Origin: a virus
Length of the DNA: 64,000 bases
Reading direction: 5' to 3' (one strand)
Virus record (IMG/VR): IMGVR_UViG_3300050343_000110
Positions within the stretch are counted from its first letter, which is position 1, and every line of letters starts with the position of its first letter. Below, in pieces: positions 3,627 through 48,768 of the stretch. The translations under genes and the position numbers were made by a program. The notes under the pieces are model-generated. The model searched no databases and was not told the origin of the DNA. It saw only the letters and a program-made list of their open reading frames with translations.

Positions 3627-4014
3627 GTTACCAACTAAAGGATTATCTTAACTCAATCAATCTCACAAAGGAAAATCTGATGGAAACAGATGATCCTATG
3701 TGGGAGAAGAAGTATTCGCCATTTATCATTAATAAGTGTGTTGCACCATTCAATGACACAATTATGCTTGTAAATGAGATGAATCAACGTCACCACCTTG
3801 ACTCAAAACTACAATATGACTTTTTACTAAATACTATTAGACGCCTAAGAAAAGATATGCTCCTTGGGTGAAAGCGGATAAGTTGAAAAACTTAGACTAT
3901 GTAAAAGAATATTATGGTTATAGTAATGAGAAGGCCAAACAAGCATTATCAATACTAAATGATGACCAGATAACCACTATTAAAAATAGTTTGAATAAAG
4001 GTGGAAGAAAATGA
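3623..4014 (+). CDS. gp62: Clamp loader small subunit gp62 (frameshift near 3841, probable read error)
   Basis: LKDYLNSIN...QYDFLLNTIR continues in another frame as KRYAPWVK...KEYYGYSNEKA...KGG. Confidence 0.9.
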
Positions 4015-4415
4015 ACGAAACTGAATGGCATCCAGAAGAGATGCTGGAAATTAAACTTAAAGAACCTGATGACTTTTTGAAGGTTCGTGAGACACTATCT
4101 CGTATTGGTGTCGCCTCTCGTAAAGAGAGAAAACTATATCAATCCTGTCACATTCTACATAAACAGGGTAAGTACTACATTGTGCATTTCAAAGAACTCT
4201 TTGCACTAGATGGTAAAGATACAAACTTAAATGAAAATGACATATCTCGTAGAAACTCTATTGCCTCTCTATTAGGTGATTGGGGGTTAGTAGAAATTGT
4301 TGGGAGTGCAGAACCTAAGGCTCCTCTTTCACAAATCAAAGTGATTGCCTTCAAAGAGAAGGATGAGTGGGTTCTAGAAACAAAATACAACATTGGTAAG
4401 AAAAGAGAAGTATAG
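4011..4415 (+). CDS. regA: Translational repressor RegA
   Basis: DDFLKVRETLSRIG, LYQSCHILHKQGKYYIVHFKELF. Confidence 0.97.
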   Translation: MNETEWHPEEMLEIKLKEPDDFLKVRETLSRIGVASRKERKLYQSCHILHKQGKYYIVHFKELFALDGKDTNLNENDISRRNSIASLLGDWGLVEIVGSAEPKAPLSQIKVIAFKEKDEWVLETKYNIGKKREV

Positions 4416-5768
4416 TTGACACGCTCGTTTACAGATTTTATCACAGAAGAAAAGCAACTAGAAAACTACAAAGTAGTTATTCTTACAGTTGAGGTGGGTG
4501 ATAAATCTAAGACTGCAATCAAGTTTGAAAAAGAGGCAAAGAAGATGGGTATGGAAGTTCTTTTATCAGACTTCAAAACAACATCCCTGACCTTTAATAA
4601 TGGTAAGTATACTCTAAACAACAAAGACAAAAGTATGGACATCAGTTCCAAAGATACTGTTGTGTTTGTTAGAGGAACACCAACCAGAGATAGTCATCTA
4701 GACTTGATTTCAGAACTAGAAAGAATTGGTATTACTTGTATTAACAACAGAACTACTATCAGTATTTGTGCTGATAAGTATCGTAGTTATGTGAGACTAA
4801 AAGATTTCAGATTAGACCAACCCAAAAGTGTTCTTGTTCCTACAGAAGATGATATTGATTCTGCATTAGAAGAGCTTGATACCAAGTTTCCTATCATCCT
4901 CAAAACTCTTAGGGGTGCAGGCGGTGTTGGTGTTCTATTTGTTGAATCGAAACGTGCATTAGATTCTCTCGTACAATTAATTTATAAACAAGACCCAGAA
5001 ACAGATATTCTCATTCAAGAATATATCAAAACAGATGGTGACATTCGTGTTATTATTGTTGGTGATAATATTGTTGGTACAATGAAACGAGAAGTTGTTG
5101 AAGGAGATTTTAGAAGTAACTATACACAGGGTGGTGGGGTAAAATCTTACGACTTATCAGAAGAAGAAATTCGTCAATGTCTAATTGCTGCAAAGGCGGT
5201 TGATGGTGATTTTGTTGCAGTGGACTTTATTCCATACAAAGGTAAACCATACTTTTTGGAAGTAAACAGTTCGCCTGGCACAGAAGGTATTGAAGAAGCA
5301 AACTCTGGTTTGAACATTGCAAAAGAAGTTCTAGAACACTACAGGGATGTAAACAATAGATTTACTTCTCCTATCAGATGTGGTTTTCACGAGATGGTAA
5401 ACATAAAGCCATTTGGTGAAATCGAAACAAAGTTTGATACAGGGAATAGTGCATACTCAGTATTGCACGCTACTGACTTAAAAACTAGTGGTAGCAACAT
5501 CACGTTTACTACAGTAGGTGGTAAAACACATACTGCTAAACTAGAAAAAGAATATAAAGCAAGAACAGGGGGTGGAGTTGATGAACGCCCTATTGTTAAG
5601 TTAGAAGTCGAATTCATGGGCCATACACACGAACTGATGTTTGGGCTTGATGATAGAAATAAAAGAGGAACAGAAGTTCTTCTAAATAGATTTGCCATGA
5701 AAGAAATGAACGTCATGGTAGACCCTCAGAAGAAGTTGATTATTACTACAAAGAAAGGCGAAAAATAA
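4416..5768 (+). CDS. RimK-like ATP-grasp ligase fused to a C-terminal retropepsin-like (RimB-type) protease
   Basis: ATP-grasp motifs ADK, ILKTLRGAGGVGV, QEYI..DGDIRV, FRSNYTQGG, LEVNSSPG; protease KFDTGNS...ERPIV...LLNR; TTG start. Confidence 0.85.
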   Translation: MTRSFTDFITEEKQLENYKVVILTVEVGDKSKTAIKFEKEAKKMGMEVLLSDFKTTSLTFNNGKYTLNNKDKSMDISSKDTVVFVRGTPTRDSHLDLISELERIGITCINNRTTISICADKYRSYVRLKDFRLDQPKSVLVPTEDDIDSALEELDTKFPIILKTLRGAGGVGVLFVESKRALDSLVQLIYKQDPETDILIQEYIKTDGDIRVIIVGDNIVGTMKREVVEGDFRSNYTQGGGVKSYDLSEEEIRQCLIAAKAVDGDFVAVDFIPYKGKPYFLEVNSSPGTEGIEEANSGLNIAKEVLEHYRDVNNRFTSPIRCGFHEMVNIKPFGEIETKFDTGNSAYSVLHATDLKTSGSNITFTTVGGKTHTAKLEKEYKARTGGGVDERPIVKLEVEFMGHTHELMFGLDDRNKRGTEVLLNRFAMKEMNVMVDPQKKLIITTKKGEK

Positions 5769-5989
5769 TGACACTACTTGACGCAATTAAAAAACACAAC
5801 GAAGGTATCATTGCACTGCATAAAGCAAACATTGCAGTGTATCTAAAGAATCCGGCTGGTATTGGAGAACACTCTGATATCGCAGAAGCAGTACAATGTG
5901 AACTTGATAAGATTGCTGCTGCCCAAGATAGGATTGATGCAATCCATCAACATTTCTCATCAGAAGAACAAATGCCACTTTTCTCTTGA
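5768..5989 (+). CDS. Conserved T4-like hypothetical protein
   Basis: YLKNPAGIGEHSDI motif; coupled to the previous stop. Confidence 0.7.
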   Translation: MTLLDAIKKHNEGIIALHKANIAVYLKNPAGIGEHSDIAEAVQCELDKIAAAQDRIDAIHQHFSSEEQMPLFS

Positions 5990-6020
5990 CAAATCCCCCT
6001 AACGGTGGTATTATTATATA

Positions 6021-8539
6021 ATGAAATTTTACACACACGTTGCCCAATGGGGCAATCAACTACTTGTTCGTGCAGTAGAGAATGGTGTTCGTTCTAACTT
6101 CAAGGTTAAGTACGAACCCACTCTCTATGTGCCTGTTCAGAAAGAGACTGGCTGGACTACCCTAGAGGGTAAGAATGTCAGTCCTATGAACTTCCTCTCT
6201 ATTAAAGAGGCGAAGGAGTTTGTTGAACAGTATCAAAGTCAGCCCCATCTTGTCTATGGTATGACTCAATTCCCCTACACCTACATCGCCGAAAAGTATT
6301 CTAAACAGATTCAGTTTGACAGTTCACAAATGCGTATTGTCACGATTGATATTGAGGTAGAGTGTGAGAATGGTTTCCCTAACGCCGACAAGGCTCTAGA
6401 ACCTATGTTGGCTATCACCATCAAGAACCATGATACAGGACGTATCAAGGTTTGGGGTTTGCACGACTATCACAATGACAGAGAAGATGTTCAATACATC
6501 AAGTGTCAGACTGAACGTGAACTTCTGGCTCAGTTCCTTGCATGGTGGGAAAGTGACTATCCAGACGTAATCACTGGTTGGAATACAGAGTTCTTTGATA
6601 TTCCCTACATCTGCAACCGTATCAAATCGGTGATGGGTGAAGAGGCTATGAAACGTCTGTCGCCTTGGGGTATTGTAAACTCTCGCATGGTGAATTCTGG
6701 TTATGGACGTAAAGACCAAGTGTATGATATTGTGGGTGTTGTTGAGGTTGACTATCTTCAACTATATCGTAAGTTTACTTATTCTGCACAGGAATCTTAT
6801 CGTCTTGACCATATCGCCTTTGTGGAACTTGGTGAACGCAAAGATGAGAATCCTTATGAGACTTTTCGTGATTGGTATACGAAAGACTATCAGTCTTTCC
6901 TAGACTACAACATCCAAGACGTTGAACTGGTTGATAGGCTTGACGATAAGATGAAACTTATCGACCCTTATTCTGACTATGACGTATGAGGCCAAAGTAA
7001 ATATCTCTGACTCGTTTACGTCTGTTAAGTATTGGGATGTTCTCATTTACAATCATCTTCTCAAGAGAAAGATTGTCATCCCTCAAAAGACTTCCCACAA
7101 GTCCAAGGGTGAAAAGTATGTGGGTGCATATGTGAAAGAACCACAGGTTGGACAACACAAATGGGTTATGTCTTTTGACTTGAACTCATTGTATCCACAC
7201 CTTATCATGCAGTACAATATTTCGCCAGAAACACTATTGCCCGAAAAACGGTTGCCAGTTGATGTTGACCATCTTCTCGACAACAAACCTCTTCCTAAAC
7301 TTGAAGGTGCAACATTCACACCTAATGGTGCAGTCTTTCATAAACGTCACCAAGGGTTTCTCCCTGAGATGATGCAGTCGATGTATAATGACACGTACTA
7401 TCTACAAGAAGAAGATGTTGCAGGCAAAACAACAATATGAAGATACGAAGGATGCTAAATATCTAAAAGATGTTTCAAGGTACAACAACATTCAGATGGC
7501 TCGCAAGATTTCTCTAAACTCTGCCTATGGTGCAATTGGTAACGAATGGTTTCGTTATTATGATTTGCGTATTGCAGAAGGTATTACTACCTCTGGCCAG
7601 TTCTCTATTCGGTGGATTGAAAAGTCTCTGAATATGTATCTCAACAAACTGTTGAAAACTGAAGGAGAAGATTATGTCATTGCGTCTGATACGGATTCAG
7701 TATACATTACTTTTGACAAATTGGTTAATACTGTGCTTAAAGAACGAGAAGGAGAGTCGGAAGATTCATATCGTGGGCGGGCTGTTGATTTCCTTGACAC
7801 AGTGGCTCAAGAGAAGATTGAACCTTTTATTGATAAGTCTTATCAAGCTCTTGCTTCGTATGTAAATGCATATGAACAAAAGATGCAGATGGCTCGTGAG
7901 GTGATTGCCGACAAGGGTATCTGGACTGCAAAGAAAAGATACATTCTCAACGCATGGGATGTGGAAGGTGTTCGTTATCAAGAACCTCAACTCAAGATTA
8001 TGGGTATCGAGGCTGTCAAGAGTTCGACTCCTGCTCCTTGTCGTGACAAGATTAAGGAGTGTTTGAAGATTATTATGTCTGGTACAGAGAAAGATGTAAA
8101 CAACTTCATTCAAGAGTTTCGTGAAGAGTTTTTGCAACTGTCACCAGAAGAGATTGGATTCCCTCGCTCTGTGAATGGTATTCAGAAGTGGAGTGATAGT
8201 GCAAGTATCTTCAAGAAGGGAACACCTATGCATATCAAGGGCGTTATCCTTTACAATCACTTTGTCCGTCAACAAAAGTTGACTAACAAGTATCCACTAA
8301 TCCAAGAGGGTGAGAAAATCAAGTTCCTCAATATGCGTACTCCTAATCGTATGCAGTCTAACGTCATATCTTTTATGACTAAATTACCAAAAGAACTTGA
8401 CATTCACTCACATTTGGACTATGATATACAATTCGAGAAGGCTTTTATTGAGCCTCTCACTTTTATTATGAATCAGATTGGATGGAACATTGACCGTTCC
8501 TATGGTACACAAATGACTTTGGAGGACTTTTTTACATGA
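6021..8539 (+). CDS. gp43: Family B DNA polymerase gp43 (two frameshifts near 6963 and 7390)
   Basis: Exo DIEV, SFDLNSLYPH, KISLNSAYGA and SDTDS fall across three contiguous frames. Confidence 0.95.
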
Positions 8540-9675
8540 GATATAAACCATACAACCTAGAAGATGTAGTAAATGCATCTAATGAAAACAAGTTCAATGT
8601 AATCTCTACCTTTGCTGGTGGGGGTGGTTCGTCCACTGGTTATCGTCTGGCTGGTGGTAAAATACTTTGTGTAAATGAATTTGTAGAAGAGGCCCAGAAC
8701 ACTTATAGAGAAAACTATCCAGACACACCGATTTTGCCTGGCGACATTAAAGAACTATCTGGTAAAGACTTCTTGGATGTTGTTGGATTGAAAGAAGGTG
8801 AACTTGATATTCTAGATGGTTCTCCACCATGCAGTGCCTTCTCAGTCGCTGGTAAACTATCACATTCTACTGATGGTAAACACTCAGACGGTTGGGGCCA
8901 GACTAAGAATTATTCAGATGGTAAGATGGTAGAAAATATTGAGGACTTGTTCTTTGAGTTTCTACGAGTTGCAGATGATATCAGACCTAAAGTTATTGTT
9001 GCAGAGAATGTGAAGGGGTTGACTATCGGTGAGGCCAAACAATACTTTAATAAAATTAATAATACATTTGAAGATATTGGATATGATGTTGTTGCAAAGG
9101 TATTAGATAGTCGTTACTTTGGTGTATCACAAACTAGAACTCGTGTTATCTTTATTGGTTTGAGAAACGATATTACAGAGAAGGCTGGACTAAACTTTAT
9201 GACTATCAATAGTGTGTTTCCAGAACAAAGTGTAGATGTCATTCCACTAAAGGATGCACTTGTCGGACTAGAATATGATGCAGAGGAAGTTGACTATCTA
9301 ACTAAGAAGTTTCTTAATACTGCATACTGGAAAGATACTGGTAGTAATATGGAGATTGACCCACCAAAAGTTTTGACAGGTATGGACTATCATCCTAAAG
9401 GACACCACTTCAATTTGAAACGTGTATCACAGTATGCACCAGCCCCAACACTAACTGCAATGGGTAGTAATGATACAACTGCTGGTGCGTTTCACTGGGC
9501 CGAACCCAGAAAACTAACTATTGGCGAACTGAAAAGAATACAATCGTTACCAGACGATTTCAAACTTACTGGTAAGTGGAATCAGAAATCAGAACGTATC
9601 GGTAGAATGGTGCCTCCTCTGATGATGAAGGCTATCGCAGATTCAATTTATAATAAAGTACTAAAGGAGATATAA
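8536..9675 (+). CDS. C5-cytosine DNA methyltransferase-family enzyme (possible carboxymethyltransferase)
   Basis: FAGGGG, GSPPC, ENV, R.R; motif X reads GRMVPP where GN.V is usual. Confidence 0.9.
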   Translation: MRYKPYNLEDVVNASNENKFNVISTFAGGGGSSTGYRLAGGKILCVNEFVEEAQNTYRENYPDTPILPGDIKELSGKDFLDVVGLKEGELDILDGSPPCSAFSVAGKLSHSTDGKHSDGWGQTKNYSDGKMVENIEDLFFEFLRVADDIRPKVIVAENVKGLTIGEAKQYFNKINNTFEDIGYDVVAKVLDSRYFGVSQTRTRVIFIGLRNDITEKAGLNFMTINSVFPEQSVDVIPLKDALVGLEYDAEEVDYLTKKFLNTAYWKDTGSNMEIDPPKVLTGMDYHPKGHHFNLKRVSQYAPAPTLTAMGSNDTTAGAFHWAEPRKLTIGELKRIQSLPDDFKLTGKWNQKSERIGRMVPPLMMKAIADSIYNKVLKEI

Positions 9676-10376
9676 TGGCTGACTTTACTTTTGCACATAG
9701 AGAGGAAGGTTTTGATGAACATATTGAACATTCTATTCGTGGTTACAGTAATTTACTTGATGATGTGGTTCAGTACTCACGTTACTTTGTAGAAGATGAT
9801 ACTAATGTTGTAGACATTGGTTGTTCTACAGGAAAGTTCACTCAAATGATGTTAGAGGCTAATCAAGATTTTTGTTGTGATGCACATTACATTGGTGTTG
9901 AGATTGCAGAGGGGTTTCATAATGACTTACTCAAAAGACAAGAAAACATTGACAAATTGCACCCTTGGGCCTCAACTGAATTCTTATTTGAAGATGTTCG
10001 TGACTACGAGTTTGAAAACTGTTCTTTGATTACATCTATCTTCACTTTACAATTCATGCCACCTAGACATAGACAAGAAGTAATAAGACGAATCTATGAA
10101 GGATTAAATACTGGCGGTGCATTTATATTTGGAGAGAAAACAGTATGTCAAGACCCTAGACTACAGAATATGATGACATTTAATTATTATGACTACAAGA
10201 GAAAGAACTTTGATACAGAAGATATCATGGATAAAGAAAAGACTTTACGTCATATGATGAAACCAAACACTTGGGATGAGATTGTAAACAATCTTATTGA
10301 GGCTGGGTTTTGGGGTGATAAGATACAGCCATTTTGGAGAAACCACACATTCGTAGGAGCGATTGCAATAAAATGA
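9675..10376 (+). CDS. cmoA: CmoA-like carboxy-S-adenosylmethionine synthase
   Basis: FTF..F..I..SIRGY, DIGCSTG, FTLQF, IYEGLNTGG..EK, DYKR match the CmoA pattern. Confidence 0.85.
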   Translation: MADFTFAHREEGFDEHIEHSIRGYSNLLDDVVQYSRYFVEDDTNVVDIGCSTGKFTQMMLEANQDFCCDAHYIGVEIAEGFHNDLLKRQENIDKLHPWASTEFLFEDVRDYEFENCSLITSIFTLQFMPPRHRQEVIRRIYEGLNTGGAFIFGEKTVCQDPRLQNMMTFNYYDYKRKNFDTEDIMDKEKTLRHMMKPNTWDEIVNNLIEAGFWGDKIQPFWRNHTFVGAIAIK

Positions 10377-10669
10377 AACCTAACACAATAGTCACACTAG
10401 TAATGACAACAGGAGCCGAAATTATTGGACGGCTCGTAAAAGATGAATTTTCAACAATAGTAATTTACAAGCCTCGCCTAGTACAGGCGACTCAGCAGGG
10501 CGTGGGGCTTGTGAATGGAATAAGCATGACAGGTAAAGAAATCAATGAAGATTTTGAGTTTCCTAAAACATCAGTCGCATACATGGTAGAAACTATGAAA
10601 GAACTTGCAGATGGCTGGACTACACAAACTTCTGGTATTGCAGTTCCAACTCAAGGAATTATAAAGTAA
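10373..10669 (+). CDS. Hypothetical protein (Sm-like small T4-type protein)
   Basis: TGAEIIG and C-terminal TSGIAVP motif. Confidence 0.55.
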   Translation: MKPNTIVTLVMTTGAEIIGRLVKDEFSTIVIYKPRLVQATQQGVGLVNGISMTGKEINEDFEFPKTSVAYMVETMKELADGWTTQTSGIAVPTQGIIK

Positions 10670-11736
10670 TGGTTATCGAAGAAGATTTCAAACTTGACTT
10701 TTCTAATGTATTGATTCGTCCAAAGCGTTCAACACTAAAATCTAGAAAAGAAGTGGATTTATTCAGAACTACAATCTTTAGAAACAGTAAAGAGGAATAC
10801 ATTGGTGTTCCTATTATGGCTGCGAATATGGATGGAGTTGGTACGTTTGAAATCGCAGATGCACTTGCAAAACATAATGTATTTACTTGTTTGGTAAAAA
10901 CATATTCAGTGAATGAACTTGTCAGTTTCTTTGATTGTGAAGATGAGGATTTGAAATATGACAGAAGAGAAAATGTTGCAATGTCTATCGGTGTATCTGA
11001 TGAAGATTTGCAAAAGTTTCGTAATGTTTATGAGTTGACTGATGGGGCTATTAAATACCTATGCGTAGATGTTGCAAATGGATATACTGAAATGTTCAGT
11101 AACTTTATTTATCAATTGCGTTTGAATCATTCAGAACTTGTTATCATAGCAGGTAATGTAGTTACTGGTGATATGACACAGGAGTTAATTCTAAATGGAG
11201 CAGATATTGTTAAGTGTGGGATTGGCCCTGGCAGTGTGTGTACTACTCGTATACAGACAGGAGTCGGATATCCACAACTCTCATCTGTTATTGAATGTGC
11301 TGATGCCGCTCATGGTCTTGGAGGCCATATTATTGCTGATGGTGGTTGTGTATCGTCTGGTGACGTAGCAAAAGCATTTGGTGGTGGAGCAGACTTTGTT
11401 ATGCTTGGTGGTATGTTGTCTGGCCACGATGAAGGTGGTGGGGAATATATATTAGAGGATGATAATCCAGAACCTATAGGAGTTCGATTCTATGGGATGA
11501 GTTCGGAGATAGCAAATGAAAAACACTTTGGTGGACTTAAAGACTACCGAGCTTCTGAAGGAAAAGAAGTCGTTGTTCCCTACAGAGGAAGCATTCATAA
11601 TACTATGCAAACTATTCTTGGAGGCATCAGATCGTCCTGTACTTATGTTGGAGCAAGACGAATAAAAGACTTGACAAAATGCACAACTTTTGTTAAAGTA
11701 TATAATACTCATAACACAATCTTTGGAGATAAATGA
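10669..11736 (+). CDS. guaC: GMP reductase
   Basis: KLDF.NVLIRPKRS, AANMD, DVANGY, GIGPGSVCTTR, FYGMSS. Confidence 0.95.
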   Translation: MVIEEDFKLDFSNVLIRPKRSTLKSRKEVDLFRTTIFRNSKEEYIGVPIMAANMDGVGTFEIADALAKHNVFTCLVKTYSVNELVSFFDCEDEDLKYDRRENVAMSIGVSDEDLQKFRNVYELTDGAIKYLCVDVANGYTEMFSNFIYQLRLNHSELVIIAGNVVTGDMTQELILNGADIVKCGIGPGSVCTTRIQTGVGYPQLSSVIECADAAHGLGGHIIADGGCVSSGDVAKAFGGGADFVMLGGMLSGHDEGGGEYILEDDNPEPIGVRFYGMSSEIANEKHFGGLKDYRASEGKEVVVPYRGSIHNTMQTILGGIRSSCTYVGARRIKDLTKCTTFVKVYNTHNTIFGDK

Positions 11737-48054: not shown

Positions 48055-48768
48055 ATGTTTAATCATGTACCAGTAGATATCCCAGAGGTATCAACTAAAA
48101 CTATCAAGCGTAAGCGTTTCTATGATACGCCTACAGGGTTCTATCCCTCTATTACAACCGTATTAGGTGTTCGTAAAGAGAAACAACAAGGACTTGCAAA
48201 GTGGCGTGAACGTGTAGGTAACGATGTTGCCAATCACATCATGCGAACTGCCGCAGGCCGTGGAACTGCTGTTCACCATATGTGTGAAGATTTCCTTAAC
48301 AACAAAGAGGTTATTCAAGAAGAACAGAAGTTCTTGCCTTGGTGTTTGTTCTCTCAACTAAAACCCACTCTGACAAAAAGTATAAATAATATTTTCGCAC
48401 AAGAATGTGGACTATGGAGTGAGAAGTATAGACTCGCTGGTAGAGTCGATTGCATTGCTGAATGGAACGGTGTTCCTTCTATTATTGACTTTAAGACTTC
48501 ACGTTCTGAAAGAAAAGATGACTATAATTTTGAATATTATATGCAGGCATCAGCCTATGCAGAAATGTTTGAAGAACGAACAGGAATTGAAATCAATCAG
48601 ATTGTAATTCTTGTTGTAACAGAAGATGGACTAGTTCAAGAGTTTGTTAAAGAGAAGCACGAATATCTGCAACCTCTTATTGAAACCATTGATATGTTCA
48701 CTGAACAATGGGAAAAAGAAAATGAAGAGTTGGAAGAAGGCCCTGACGTTATCGGCGCTCCTGTTTAG
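48055..48768 (+). CDS. PD-(D/E)XK exonuclease
   Basis: YPSITTVL, RGT.VH, AGRVDCI, IIDFKTS, Q..AYA. Confidence 0.88.
   Translation: MFNHVPVDIPEVSTKTIKRKRFYDTPTGFYPSITTVLGVRKEKQQGLAKWRERVGNDVANHIMRTAAGRGTAVHHMCEDFLNNKEVIQEEQKFLPWCLFSQLKPTLTKSINNIFAQECGLWSEKYRLAGRVDCIAEWNGVPSIIDFKTSRSERKDDYNFEYYMQASAYAEMFEERTGIEINQIVILVVTEDGLVQEFVKEKHEYLQPLIETIDMFTEQWEKENEELEEGPDVIGAPV

What the first reader, a model, noticed from the sequence alone, without database searches (positions are those of the whole stretch)
8536..10376. C5 DNA methyltransferase coupled to a CmoA-like carboxy-SAM synthase: probable carboxymethyl-cytosine DNA modification
Seen: the MTase overlaps the gp43 stop (ATGA) and is TAATG-coupled to a clear CmoA homologue. 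Its motif X reads GRMVPP, with Arg where C5-MTases normally have Asn. Known: CmoA makes Cx-SAM from SAM and prephenate, and a basic residue at this Asn position is what lets engineered C5-MTases use Cx-SAM. From memory, a similar pair has been reported in a cyanophage; this needs verifying. No cmoB tRNA partner is in the window. The CmoA homologue has KEKTLR where E. coli has KRSMLE, so the carboxylate-binding Arg appears shifted. Inference: the phage DNA carries 5-carboxymethylcytosine or a derivative as anti-restriction chemistry.
Basis: partly seen in the sequence, partly recalled or inferred. Interest (0 to 1): 0.82.

Follow-up and report, generated by a model that had tools for sequence, protein, structure and literature searches.

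The report
Phage CmoX–CmoA carboxymethylcytosine DNA-modification pair
A marine T4-like phage carries, just after its DNA polymerase gene, the two-enzyme system published in 2025 that puts a carboxymethyl group on DNA cytosines; this is a new, ligase-less member of a known system, and its target sequence may differ from the published one.

Summary
Every sequence observation holds. ORF 8536-9675 is a C5-cytosine methyltransferase homologue with Arg357 (GRMVPP) where these enzymes normally have Asn. It overlaps the gp43 stop (ATGA) and is TAATG-coupled to a CmoA homologue (9675-10376).

Synechococcus phage S-B43 CmoA makes Cx-SAM, CmoX makes 5-carboxymethylcytosine, and CmoY amidates it with glycine. 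The window's proteins are 62% and 61% identical to SpCmoX (PDB 8YF3) and SpCmoA, and they keep SPPC, ENV, QxRxR and the key Arg. The "shifted Arg" in CmoA (KEKTLR) is shared with the biochemically active SpCmoA.

What is specific here:
- The backbone is Melnitz-like (OM43 phage type).
- The cassette fills a slot after gp43 that in Melnitz holds a methyltransferase–TET cassette.
- No CmoY-type ligase was found in the window or in 79 kb of a sister contig, so un-amidated 5cxmC is the likely end product.

Following an earlier scan note, I found that the window's assembly indels, including the two that break gp43, fall almost only at GACC/GATC sites (p≈5e-14). This suggests native DNA modified at GAYC rather than at S-B43's GC motif. 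Attribution to CmoX is unproven.

The parts
8536..9675 (+). cmoX: Cx-SAM-dependent DNA cytosine C5-carboxymethyltransferase homologue (379 aa). Key residues: SPPC 96-99 (Cys99 nucleophile), ENV 157-159, QxRxR 199-203, Arg357 in GRMVPP. The target-recognition region is roughly 209-322.
   Evidence: PF00145 at E 3.4e-57. PDB 8YF3 (SpCmoX) at E 1.1e-150, 61.6% identity. Residue conservation in 82 of 82 homologues. The recognition region is 42% identical to SpCmoX, against 69% for the catalytic part.
9675..10376 (+). cmoA: carboxy-SAM synthase homologue (233 aa). E188 sits at the E. coli R199 position and R192 lies one helical turn later.
   Evidence: TIGR00740 at E 9e-35, below the cut-off. 4GEK and 1IM8 at E ~1e-26. 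60.6% identity to the biochemically active SpCmoA. K187 and E188 are invariant and R192 is present in 65 of 70 phage homologues.
6021..8539 (+). gp43 DNA polymerase (context; upstream boundary of the cassette). Its stop overlaps the cmoX start (ATGA). In this window it is split into three ORFs by +1 insertions at 6965 and 7393, both at true GACC sites.
   Evidence: 83-85% amino-acid identity to Melnitz gp43 across three frames. Intact in L004, L085, L086 and others; both insertions are supported by 9 of 9 references.
10373..10669 (+). orf98, a backbone gene that marks the downstream boundary of the cassette. Its ATG overlaps the cmoA stop (ATGA).
   Evidence: 42% identity (E 2e-31) to the 99-aa Melnitz ORF just before mazG. 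phrog_527, function unknown.

Best explanation
This is a two-gene cmoX-cmoA cassette of the published phage DNA carboxymethylation system. It is expressed with the replication genes, being translationally coupled to gp43. CmoA converts host SAM and prephenate into carboxy-SAM. CmoX attacks cytosine C6 with Cys99 and transfers the carboxymethyl group to C5, with Arg357 holding the cofactor carboxylate. Replicating phage DNA therefore acquires 5-carboxymethylcytosine, which blocks restriction enzymes. This lineage has no CmoY-type amide ligase next to the pair, so 5cxmC itself is probably the final mark. What is shown here is orthology, residue conservation and gene linkage. What is shown elsewhere is the chemistry, on orthologues 61-62% identical. 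What is inferred is activity in this phage, the end product and the target motif.
For: Orthology to the characterised enzymes: 8YF3 at E 1.1e-150, with 61.6% and 60.6% identity. The Cx-SAM-binding and catalytic residues named in the paper are all present: F26, E48, F49, D70, SPPC, E157, R201/R203 and R357. They are invariant in 80 IMG/VR relatives. Biochemistry of the S-B43 system: SpCmoA kcat 2.33 s-1; SpCmoX uses only Cx-SAM; R350N is dead; 5cxmC blocks HhaI. Overlapping start and stop codons link gp43, cmoX, cmoA and orf98. CmoA accompanies CmoX in 73 of 80 related loci. No CmoB was found, and the only tRNA is Arg(UCU). No CmoY was found by tblastn or Pfam in the window or in 79 kb of the sister contig. 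The closest relatives (CmoX at least 90% identical) also run straight from gp43 into cmoX.
Against: No chemistry was done on this phage. wCmoA scores below NCBIfam's CmoA cut-off (120 vs 193 bits) and lacks Arg at the E. coli R199 position, although SpCmoA shares that feature. About 54 kb of the genome (the structural module) was not examined, so a ligase could lie there. Relatives 88-89% identical in CmoX do carry cmoY. The host, and therefore its prephenate supply, is unknown.
Confidence: 0.8

Rival explanations
1. The pair makes 5cxmC only as an intermediate. An unrecognised or distant ligase, elsewhere in the genome or of a different family, amidates it, so virion DNA carries a 5cxmC amide as in S-B43.
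For: S-B43 virions contain only the glycine amide and no free 5cxmC. 36 of 80 related loci, including CmoX homologues 88-89% identical, have a CmoY homologue beside cmoX. Relatives also carry unannotated 300-520-aa genes in the cassette. About 54 kb of the genome was not seen.
Against: No Asn-synthase-type protein was found in the window, or in positions 54-133 kb of the sister contig. None of the relatives' accessory proteins has a homologue in the window. In known cases the ligase is adjacent. The RimK-like ATP-grasp at 4416-5768 is also present in Mosig, where I found no C5 methyltransferase (Melnitz has one too), and it co-occurs with CmoY in L021. It is therefore not a substitute.
Confidence: 0.13
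2. The methyltransferase is an ordinary SAM-dependent 5mC enzyme. The CmoA homologue then serves another purpose, such as draining SAM against SAM-dependent host defences, or supplying Cx-SAM to host CmoB for tRNA cmo5U.
For: The fold and all catalytic motifs are those of C5 methyltransferases. The paper itself raises SAM depletion by CmoA as a possible extra role. Four related loci have CmoX without CmoA.
Against: Arg at the Asn position is invariant in 82 of 82 homologues. Wild-type SpCmoX accepted only Cx-SAM and not SAM. CmoX and CmoA are tightly coupled translationally and genomically. There is no CmoB, and the single tRNA does not need cmo5U.
Confidence: 0.04
3. On the indel footprint only: the GACC/GATC-specific assembly errors come from a different modification and not from CmoX. 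Candidates are N6-adenine methylation by a Dam-like enzyme of relaxed GAYC specificity (phage or host), or a motif-specific basecaller artefact.
For: From memory, T4/T2 Dam variants methylate GACC as well as GATC. Adenine is the only base shared on one strand by all hit sites. SpCmoX targets GC, not GAYC. The sequencing platform of the window is not known to me.
Against: CmoX is the only Pfam-recognisable DNA methyltransferase in the window and in 79 kb of the sister contig. The whole Melnitz genome has no PF02086, PF05869 or PF01555 enzyme. GATC is 4.6-fold depleted in the window, which is unusual for a Dam-protected phage. All GAYC sites also share a 3' cytosine, and C5 enzymes for GATC exist (M.Sau3AI, from memory).
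Confidence: 0.5

Closest known systems
CmoA-CmoX-CmoY system of Synechococcus phage S-B43 (Yang et al., Nat Commun 2025; PDB 8YF3)
   Same: Orthologous CmoX (62% identity) and CmoA (61%). Same SPPC Cys, same Arg at the HhaI-N304 position, same Cx-SAM-contacting residues and the same KEK-LR variant in CmoA. Both are adjacent genes in a T4-like marine myophage with no CmoB.
   Different: Gene order is cmoX-cmoA here, against cmoA-cmoY-cmoX in S-B43. There is no CmoY, so the predicted end product is 5cxmC rather than the glycine amide. The backbone is Melnitz-like (OM43-phage type) rather than cyanophage. The target-recognition region is only 42% identical. The error footprint points to GAYC rather than GC, which is unproven.
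Engineered carboxymethyltransferases M.MpeI N374K and M.MedI variants (CpG-specific)
   Same: A basic residue replaces the motif X Asn, which lets a C5 methyltransferase use Cx-SAM to make 5cxmC.
   Different: Those are laboratory mutants with Lys that act at CG and rely on E. coli CmoA. Here the residue is a natural Arg and the phage brings its own CmoA.
E. coli CmoA/CmoB tRNA cmo5U34 pathway
   Same: The CmoA fold and SAM-binding residues are shared (Y24, D47, G49, S51, D107, F127 equivalents). The likely reaction, SAM plus prephenate to Cx-SAM, is the same.
   Different: There is no CmoB, and DNA rather than tRNA is the acceptor. E. coli R199, which binds the carboxylate, is Glu here, with Arg four residues later (a swap with E203). 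The protein scores below the NCBIfam equivalog cut-off.
Methyltransferase-TET/JBP cytosine hypermodification cassette of Methylophilales phage Melnitz
   Same: It occupies the same genomic slot, between gp43 and the orf98/99-mazG-uvsX block. Its C5 methyltransferase is 39% identical, with the same SPPC/ENV/QxRxR motifs.
   Different: The Melnitz enzyme has Leu (GLMVAP) at the Arg/Asn position. It is followed by a TET/JBP dioxygenase, a 427-aa unknown protein and a P-loop kinase rather than CmoA. That implies a 5mC/5hmC-based route rather than carboxymethylation.

Membership tests
CmoX (Cx-SAM-dependent DNA cytosine C5-carboxymethyltransferase) | C5-cytosine methyltransferase fold with the SPPC catalytic cysteine motif | tested here: met
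   PF00145 at E 3.4e-57. SPPC at 96-99, aligned to S95-C98 of SpCmoX.
CmoX (Cx-SAM-dependent DNA cytosine C5-carboxymethyltransferase) | Arg at the position of HhaI Asn304 / SpCmoX Arg350, which binds the cofactor carboxylate | tested here: met
   R357 in GRMVPP aligns to R350 of 8YF3 and to Asn of HaeIII. It is invariant in 82 of 82 homologues.
CmoX (Cx-SAM-dependent DNA cytosine C5-carboxymethyltransferase) | Cofactor- and cytosine-contacting residues (SpCmoX F25, E47, F48, D69; ENV Glu; QxRxR Arg) | tested here: met
   F26, E48, F49, D70, E157, R201 and R203 are present and invariant.
CmoX (Cx-SAM-dependent DNA cytosine C5-carboxymethyltransferase) | Genomic association with a phage CmoA | tested here: met
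   TAATG overlap with cmoA. 73 of 80 related loci also have CmoA.
CmoX (Cx-SAM-dependent DNA cytosine C5-carboxymethyltransferase) | Transfers carboxymethyl from Cx-SAM, and not methyl from SAM, to DNA cytosine C5 | not testable with these tools
   Known only for SpCmoX. Needs an enzyme assay or LC-MS.
CmoX (Cx-SAM-dependent DNA cytosine C5-carboxymethyltransferase) | GC target motif (a property of SpCmoX, not necessarily of the family) | tested here: inconclusive
   The recognition region is 42% identical to SpCmoX. Only 2 of 16 indel events lie near a GC (about chance), and 14 lie at GACC/GATC. The link to CmoX is unproven.
CmoA (carboxy-SAM synthase) | Scores as a CmoA equivalog (TIGR00740 / PRK15451) | tested here: not met
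   CmoA is the best family, but the scores are below the curated cut-offs: 120.4 against 193.3 bits and 94.2 against 285 bits.
CmoA (carboxy-SAM synthase) | Close homology to an enzyme with demonstrated Cx-SAM synthase activity | tested here: met
   60.6% identity over the full length to SpCmoA, kcat 2.33 s-1. E ~1e-26 to E. coli and H. influenzae CmoA structures.
CmoA (carboxy-SAM synthase) | Arg199 (E. coli numbering) forming a salt bridge to the Cx-SAM carboxylate | tested here: not met
   The aligned residue is E188, and Arg is at 192, where E. coli has E203. SpCmoA has the same arrangement, and it is near-invariant in 70 phage homologues.
CmoA (carboxy-SAM synthase) | SAM-binding residues of E. 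coli CmoA (Y39, D62, G64, S66, D89, D117, F137) | tested here: met
   By the HMMER alignment: Y24, D47, G49, S51, E76 (conservative), D107 and F127. N90 and N132 are not kept.
CmoY (ATP-dependent 5cxmC amide ligase, Asn-synthase-like) | A PF00733-type ligase homologous to SpCmoY encoded with the pair | tested here: not met
   tblastn with SpCmoY against the window gives a best E of 0.63. No PF00733 hit in the scanned ORFs or in the precomputed Pfam hits of the sister contig, 54-133 kb. The positive control, S-B43, was found.
CmoB-type tRNA carboxymethyltransferase pathway | Presence of CmoB as the Cx-SAM consumer | tested here: not met
   No CmoB-like family among the window's ORFs or the sister-contig genes. 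The only tRNA is Arg(UCU).

The most novel reading that the evidence does not exclude
This CmoX has a different and more selective target than the published enzyme: GAYC (GACC and GATC) rather than GC. It leaves free, un-amidated 5-carboxymethylcytosine as the terminal mark in an abundant OM43/SAR11-type marine myophage lineage. On this reading, the frameshift errors in long-read assemblies of this phage are a direct in-situ footprint of that modification.
Probability: 0.3. Interest if true: 0.55.

Novelty: new member of a known kind. Interest (0 to 1): 0.36.

Why it matters
The value here is in the detail. The cassette is not confined to cyanophages: it sits in Melnitz-like phages of streamlined marine heterotrophs and is very common in marine viromes. 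It occupies an exchangeable modification slot after the DNA polymerase gene, which in Melnitz holds a TET-based cassette. Very close relatives differ by the presence or absence of the amide ligase, so both free 5cxmC and its amides probably exist in nature. If the GAYC footprint is due to CmoX, it would give the first evidence of diversified sequence specificity in this enzyme family. It would also give a practical warning that long-read phage assemblies break genes at modified sites.

Tried and rejected
**RimK-like ATP-grasp as a stand-in ligase.** I considered the RimK-like ATP-grasp/retropepsin fusion (4416-5768) as a substitute amide ligase and rejected it. The same gene sits in the regA-gp43 module of Pelagibacter phage Mosig, where I found no C5 methyltransferase, and of Melnitz (TET cassette). 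It also co-occurs with CmoY in L021.

**ORF 48055-48768.** This gave a weak tblastn hit to SpCmoY (E 0.63). It is a PD-(D/E)XK nuclease, not a ligase.

**orf98 as a chorismate mutase supplying prephenate.** It has no Pfam hit and is a backbone gene conserved in Melnitz.

**Accessory unknown proteins next to the cassette in relatives.** None has a homologue in the window.

**Whole-genome searches.** No genome is held for the window, and the JGI sister contig cannot be searched as a record. I therefore walked it with exact-protein look-ups and covered 54-133 kb only.

**Generic homopolymer error as the cause of the indels.** Rejected. There were no indels at 590 A/T runs of at least 4 bases. All C/G-run indels lie at the 3.7% of C/G runs of two or more bases that are flanked by GA or TC.

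**A palindromic GWC motif.** Unlikely. GTCC/GGAC sites (143 covered) have 0-1 events, against 13 at 99 GACC/GGTC sites.

**Not run.** I ran no structure prediction, because a 62%-identical crystal structure exists.
Full report
**Observation**

The two ORFs are real and are arranged as described. ORF 8536-9675 (379 aa) starts at an ATG that overlaps the TGA of the upstream polymerase ORF. Its TAA overlaps the ATG of ORF 9675-10376 (233 aa), whose own TGA overlaps the ATG of a 98-aa ORF.

The first protein is a full-length C5-cytosine methyltransferase (PF00145 at E 3.4e-57; TIGR00675 at 1.6e-47). It has SPPC at 96-99, ENV at 157-159, QxRxR at 199-203 and GRMVPP at 356-361. The Arg in GRMVPP aligns with the Asn of HaeIII.

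The second protein's best family is CmoA, but it scores below NCBIfam's cut-off (TIGR00740, 120 against 193 bits). Its best solved structures are E. coli and H. influenzae CmoA (E ~1e-26).

**What it is**

Yang et al. (Nat Commun 2025, PMC12783734) describe CmoA, CmoX and CmoY of Synechococcus phage S-B43.
- SpCmoA makes carboxy-SAM from SAM and prephenate, with kcat 2.33 s-1.
- SpCmoX accepts only Cx-SAM and forms 5-carboxymethylcytosine at GC sites, which blocks HhaI.
- In the 1.9 Å structure (8YF3), Arg350 replaces HhaI Asn304 and contacts the carboxylate. The R350N mutant is dead.
- SpCmoY, an asparagine-synthetase homologue, ligates glycine to the carboxylate. Virion DNA carries only the glycine amide.

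The window's methyltransferase hits 8YF3 at E 1.1e-150 and is 61.6% identical. The CmoA homologue is 60.6% identical to SpCmoA. All residues the paper names have equivalents here: F26, E48, F49, D70, C99, E157, R201/R203 and R357. They are invariant across 80 IMG/VR homologues plus SpCmoX.

**The CmoA 'shifted Arg'**

E. coli Arg199 forms a salt bridge to the Cx-SAM carboxylate (PMC3663124). In an ungapped, well-anchored alignment it corresponds to E188 here, while E. coli E203 corresponds to R192. This looks like a charge swap one helical turn apart.

The active SpCmoA has the same KEKELR sequence. K187 and E188 are invariant, and R192 is present in 65 of 70 phage homologues. The feature therefore marks the phage clade and does not indicate lost function. 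Whether R192 takes over the role of R199 is inferred, not shown.

**Genomic setting**

The backbone is not a cyanophage. gp43 is 83-85% identical in protein to Methylophilales (OM43) phage Melnitz and about 49% identical to Pelagibacter phage Mosig.

In Melnitz the same slot lies between gp43 and a conserved orf99-mazG-uvsX block. It holds a C5 methyltransferase that is 39% identical, with Leu at the Arg/Asn position, followed by a TET/JBP dioxygenase, a 427-aa unknown protein and a P-loop kinase. The slot after gp43 therefore looks like an exchangeable site for cytosine-modification cassettes.

A scan of IMG/VR found 259 relatives of the window's CmoX, and the best 80 loci were fetched for analysis. 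The recurrent order is gp43-[cmoY]-cmoX-cmoA-[orf98]-[guaC-like]-mazG-uvsX.
- CmoA accompanies CmoX in 73 of 80 loci, and a CmoY homologue in 36 of 80.
- Loci with CmoX at least 90% identical run straight from gp43 into cmoX, as here.
- Loci at 88-89% identity have cmoY in between.
- Four loci have CmoX without CmoA.

**No ligase here**

SpCmoY finds nothing in the window (best E 0.63, in a PD-(D/E)XK nuclease). Pfam and PHROG scans of the larger ORFs found no Asn-synthase-type or AMP-forming ligase and no CmoB.

An exact-protein look-up found a 133-kb JGI contig of the same phage. Its precomputed Pfam hits over positions 54-133 kb show CmoX as the only DNA methyltransferase and no PF00733 protein. 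About 54 kb, mainly the structural module, was not seen.

The RimK-like ATP-grasp at 4416-5768 is a backbone gene. It is shared with Mosig, where I found no C5 methyltransferase, and with Melnitz, so it is not a Cmo-specific ligase. The most likely product is therefore free 5cxmC.

**A footprint in the sequence itself**

An earlier scan note (e1-5792552) claimed that broken genes in this window break at similar contexts. I tested this against near-identical short-read contigs (97.6-100% identity) that cover 45.6 kb of the window. The window has 16 consensus indel events.
- 13 lie at true GACC/GGTC sites, one at GATC and two at GACA.
- These include the two +1 insertions that split gp43, each supported by 9 of 9 references.
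- Only 1.9% of covered positions lie near GACC, giving a binomial p of about 5e-14.
- There are no events at 590 A/T runs of at least 4 bases. There are 0-1 events at 143 GTCC sites, against 13 at 99 GACC sites.

An independent and noisier long-read contig of the same phage shows the same bias. In the pooled 45 contexts, GACC appears in 19 (background 1.1%, p 1e-25) and GATC in 4 (background 0.4%, p 2e-5).

This is what systematic miscalling at modified bases in native long-read data looks like, and it points to a GAYC motif rather than S-B43's GC.
- In favour of CmoX: its recognition region is only 42% identical to SpCmoX, against 69% for the catalytic part. It is also the only recognisable DNA methyltransferase in the regions examined. 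The whole Melnitz genome has no Dam-type or N6/N4-type enzyme.
- Against: attribution is unproven. A relaxed Dam-like adenine methylase, or a host enzyme, would fit the motif too, and I do not know the sequencing platform.

Separately, GGWCC is absent (0 observed against about 51 expected) and GATC is 4.6-fold depleted.

**Verdict**

The paper's own survey counted 5,615 candidate CmoX sequences from sources including IMG/VR, and near-identical copies of this gene are in IMG/VR. This is a new member of a known kind: a minimal, ligase-less cassette in a Melnitz-like phage. The open and more interesting question is whether its target is GAYC. Interest is moderate to low for the finding as written.

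Noticed in passing
window 3841, 6964, 7392, 17467, 17589, 19188, 25430, 38199, 40957, 41166, 41558, 45863, 54081, 54209, 54624, 55318: The window carries 16 consensus indels relative to near-identical short-read contigs. 13 lie at true GACC/GGTC sites, 1 at GATC and 2 at GACA (p ~5e-14). They break gp43 and several other genes. An independent long-read contig (JGI 3300047157, L084/L094/L099/L109) shows the same bias. This is probably a modification footprint in native long-read data.
   Followed up: partly
window, whole: GGACC and GGTCC are completely absent (0 observed against about 51 expected). GATC is 4.6-fold depleted (48 against 219 expected) and GGTC is 3.7-fold depleted. GTCCC/GGGAC occurs only once. 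This looks like restriction-site avoidance.
   Followed up: partly
window 6021-8539: The gp43 DNA polymerase is split into three ORFs by two single-base insertions at 6965 and 7393. It is intact in L004, L085, L086 and six other contigs, so this is an assembly error and not a split gene.
   Followed up: yes
window 4416-5768: A RimK-like ATP-grasp is fused to a PF05618 retropepsin-like domain, between regA and gp43. It is conserved at full length in Pelagibacter phage Mosig (46% identity) and in its ATP-grasp part in Melnitz. Homologues in Yersinia phages YerA41 and GN1 are annotated as structural proteins.
   Followed up: partly
window 10669-11736: An IMPDH/GMP-reductase-family gene (PF00478, E 1e-69) is inserted between orf98 and mazG. 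It is present only in the closest relatives (6 of 80 loci). Such a gene seems unusual for a phage (my impression, not checked).
   Followed up: no
L002 (Melnitz MZ577097.1) 4010-8090: The Melnitz slot after gp43 holds a C5 methyltransferase with Leu (GLMVAP) at the motif X Asn/Arg position, a TET/JBP dioxygenase (PF12851), a 427-aa unknown protein and a P-loop kinase. The record annotates these only as 'modification methylase' and hypothetical proteins. It is a likely 5mC/5hmC-type hypermodification cassette.
   Followed up: partly
L018:363-1781, L021:5393-6445, L026:5323-6231, L033:9830-11395, L062:4166-5269, L064:4123-5523, L070:3193-4290: Cmo cassettes in relatives carry extra 300-520-aa proteins with no Pfam hit. 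One of them (L018) is distantly homologous to the Melnitz 427-aa protein of the TET cassette. These are candidate further hypermodification enzymes.
   Followed up: partly
L044:1435-3206: In one related contig a UDP-glucose/GDP-mannose dehydrogenase and an NAD-dependent epimerase lie between cmoX and cmoA. This hints at a sugar-linked derivative.
   Followed up: no
L050, L052, L076, L079: These related loci run gp43-cmoX-uvsX with the Arg-type CmoX but no CmoA. Such phages would depend on host CmoA for Cx-SAM.
   Followed up: no
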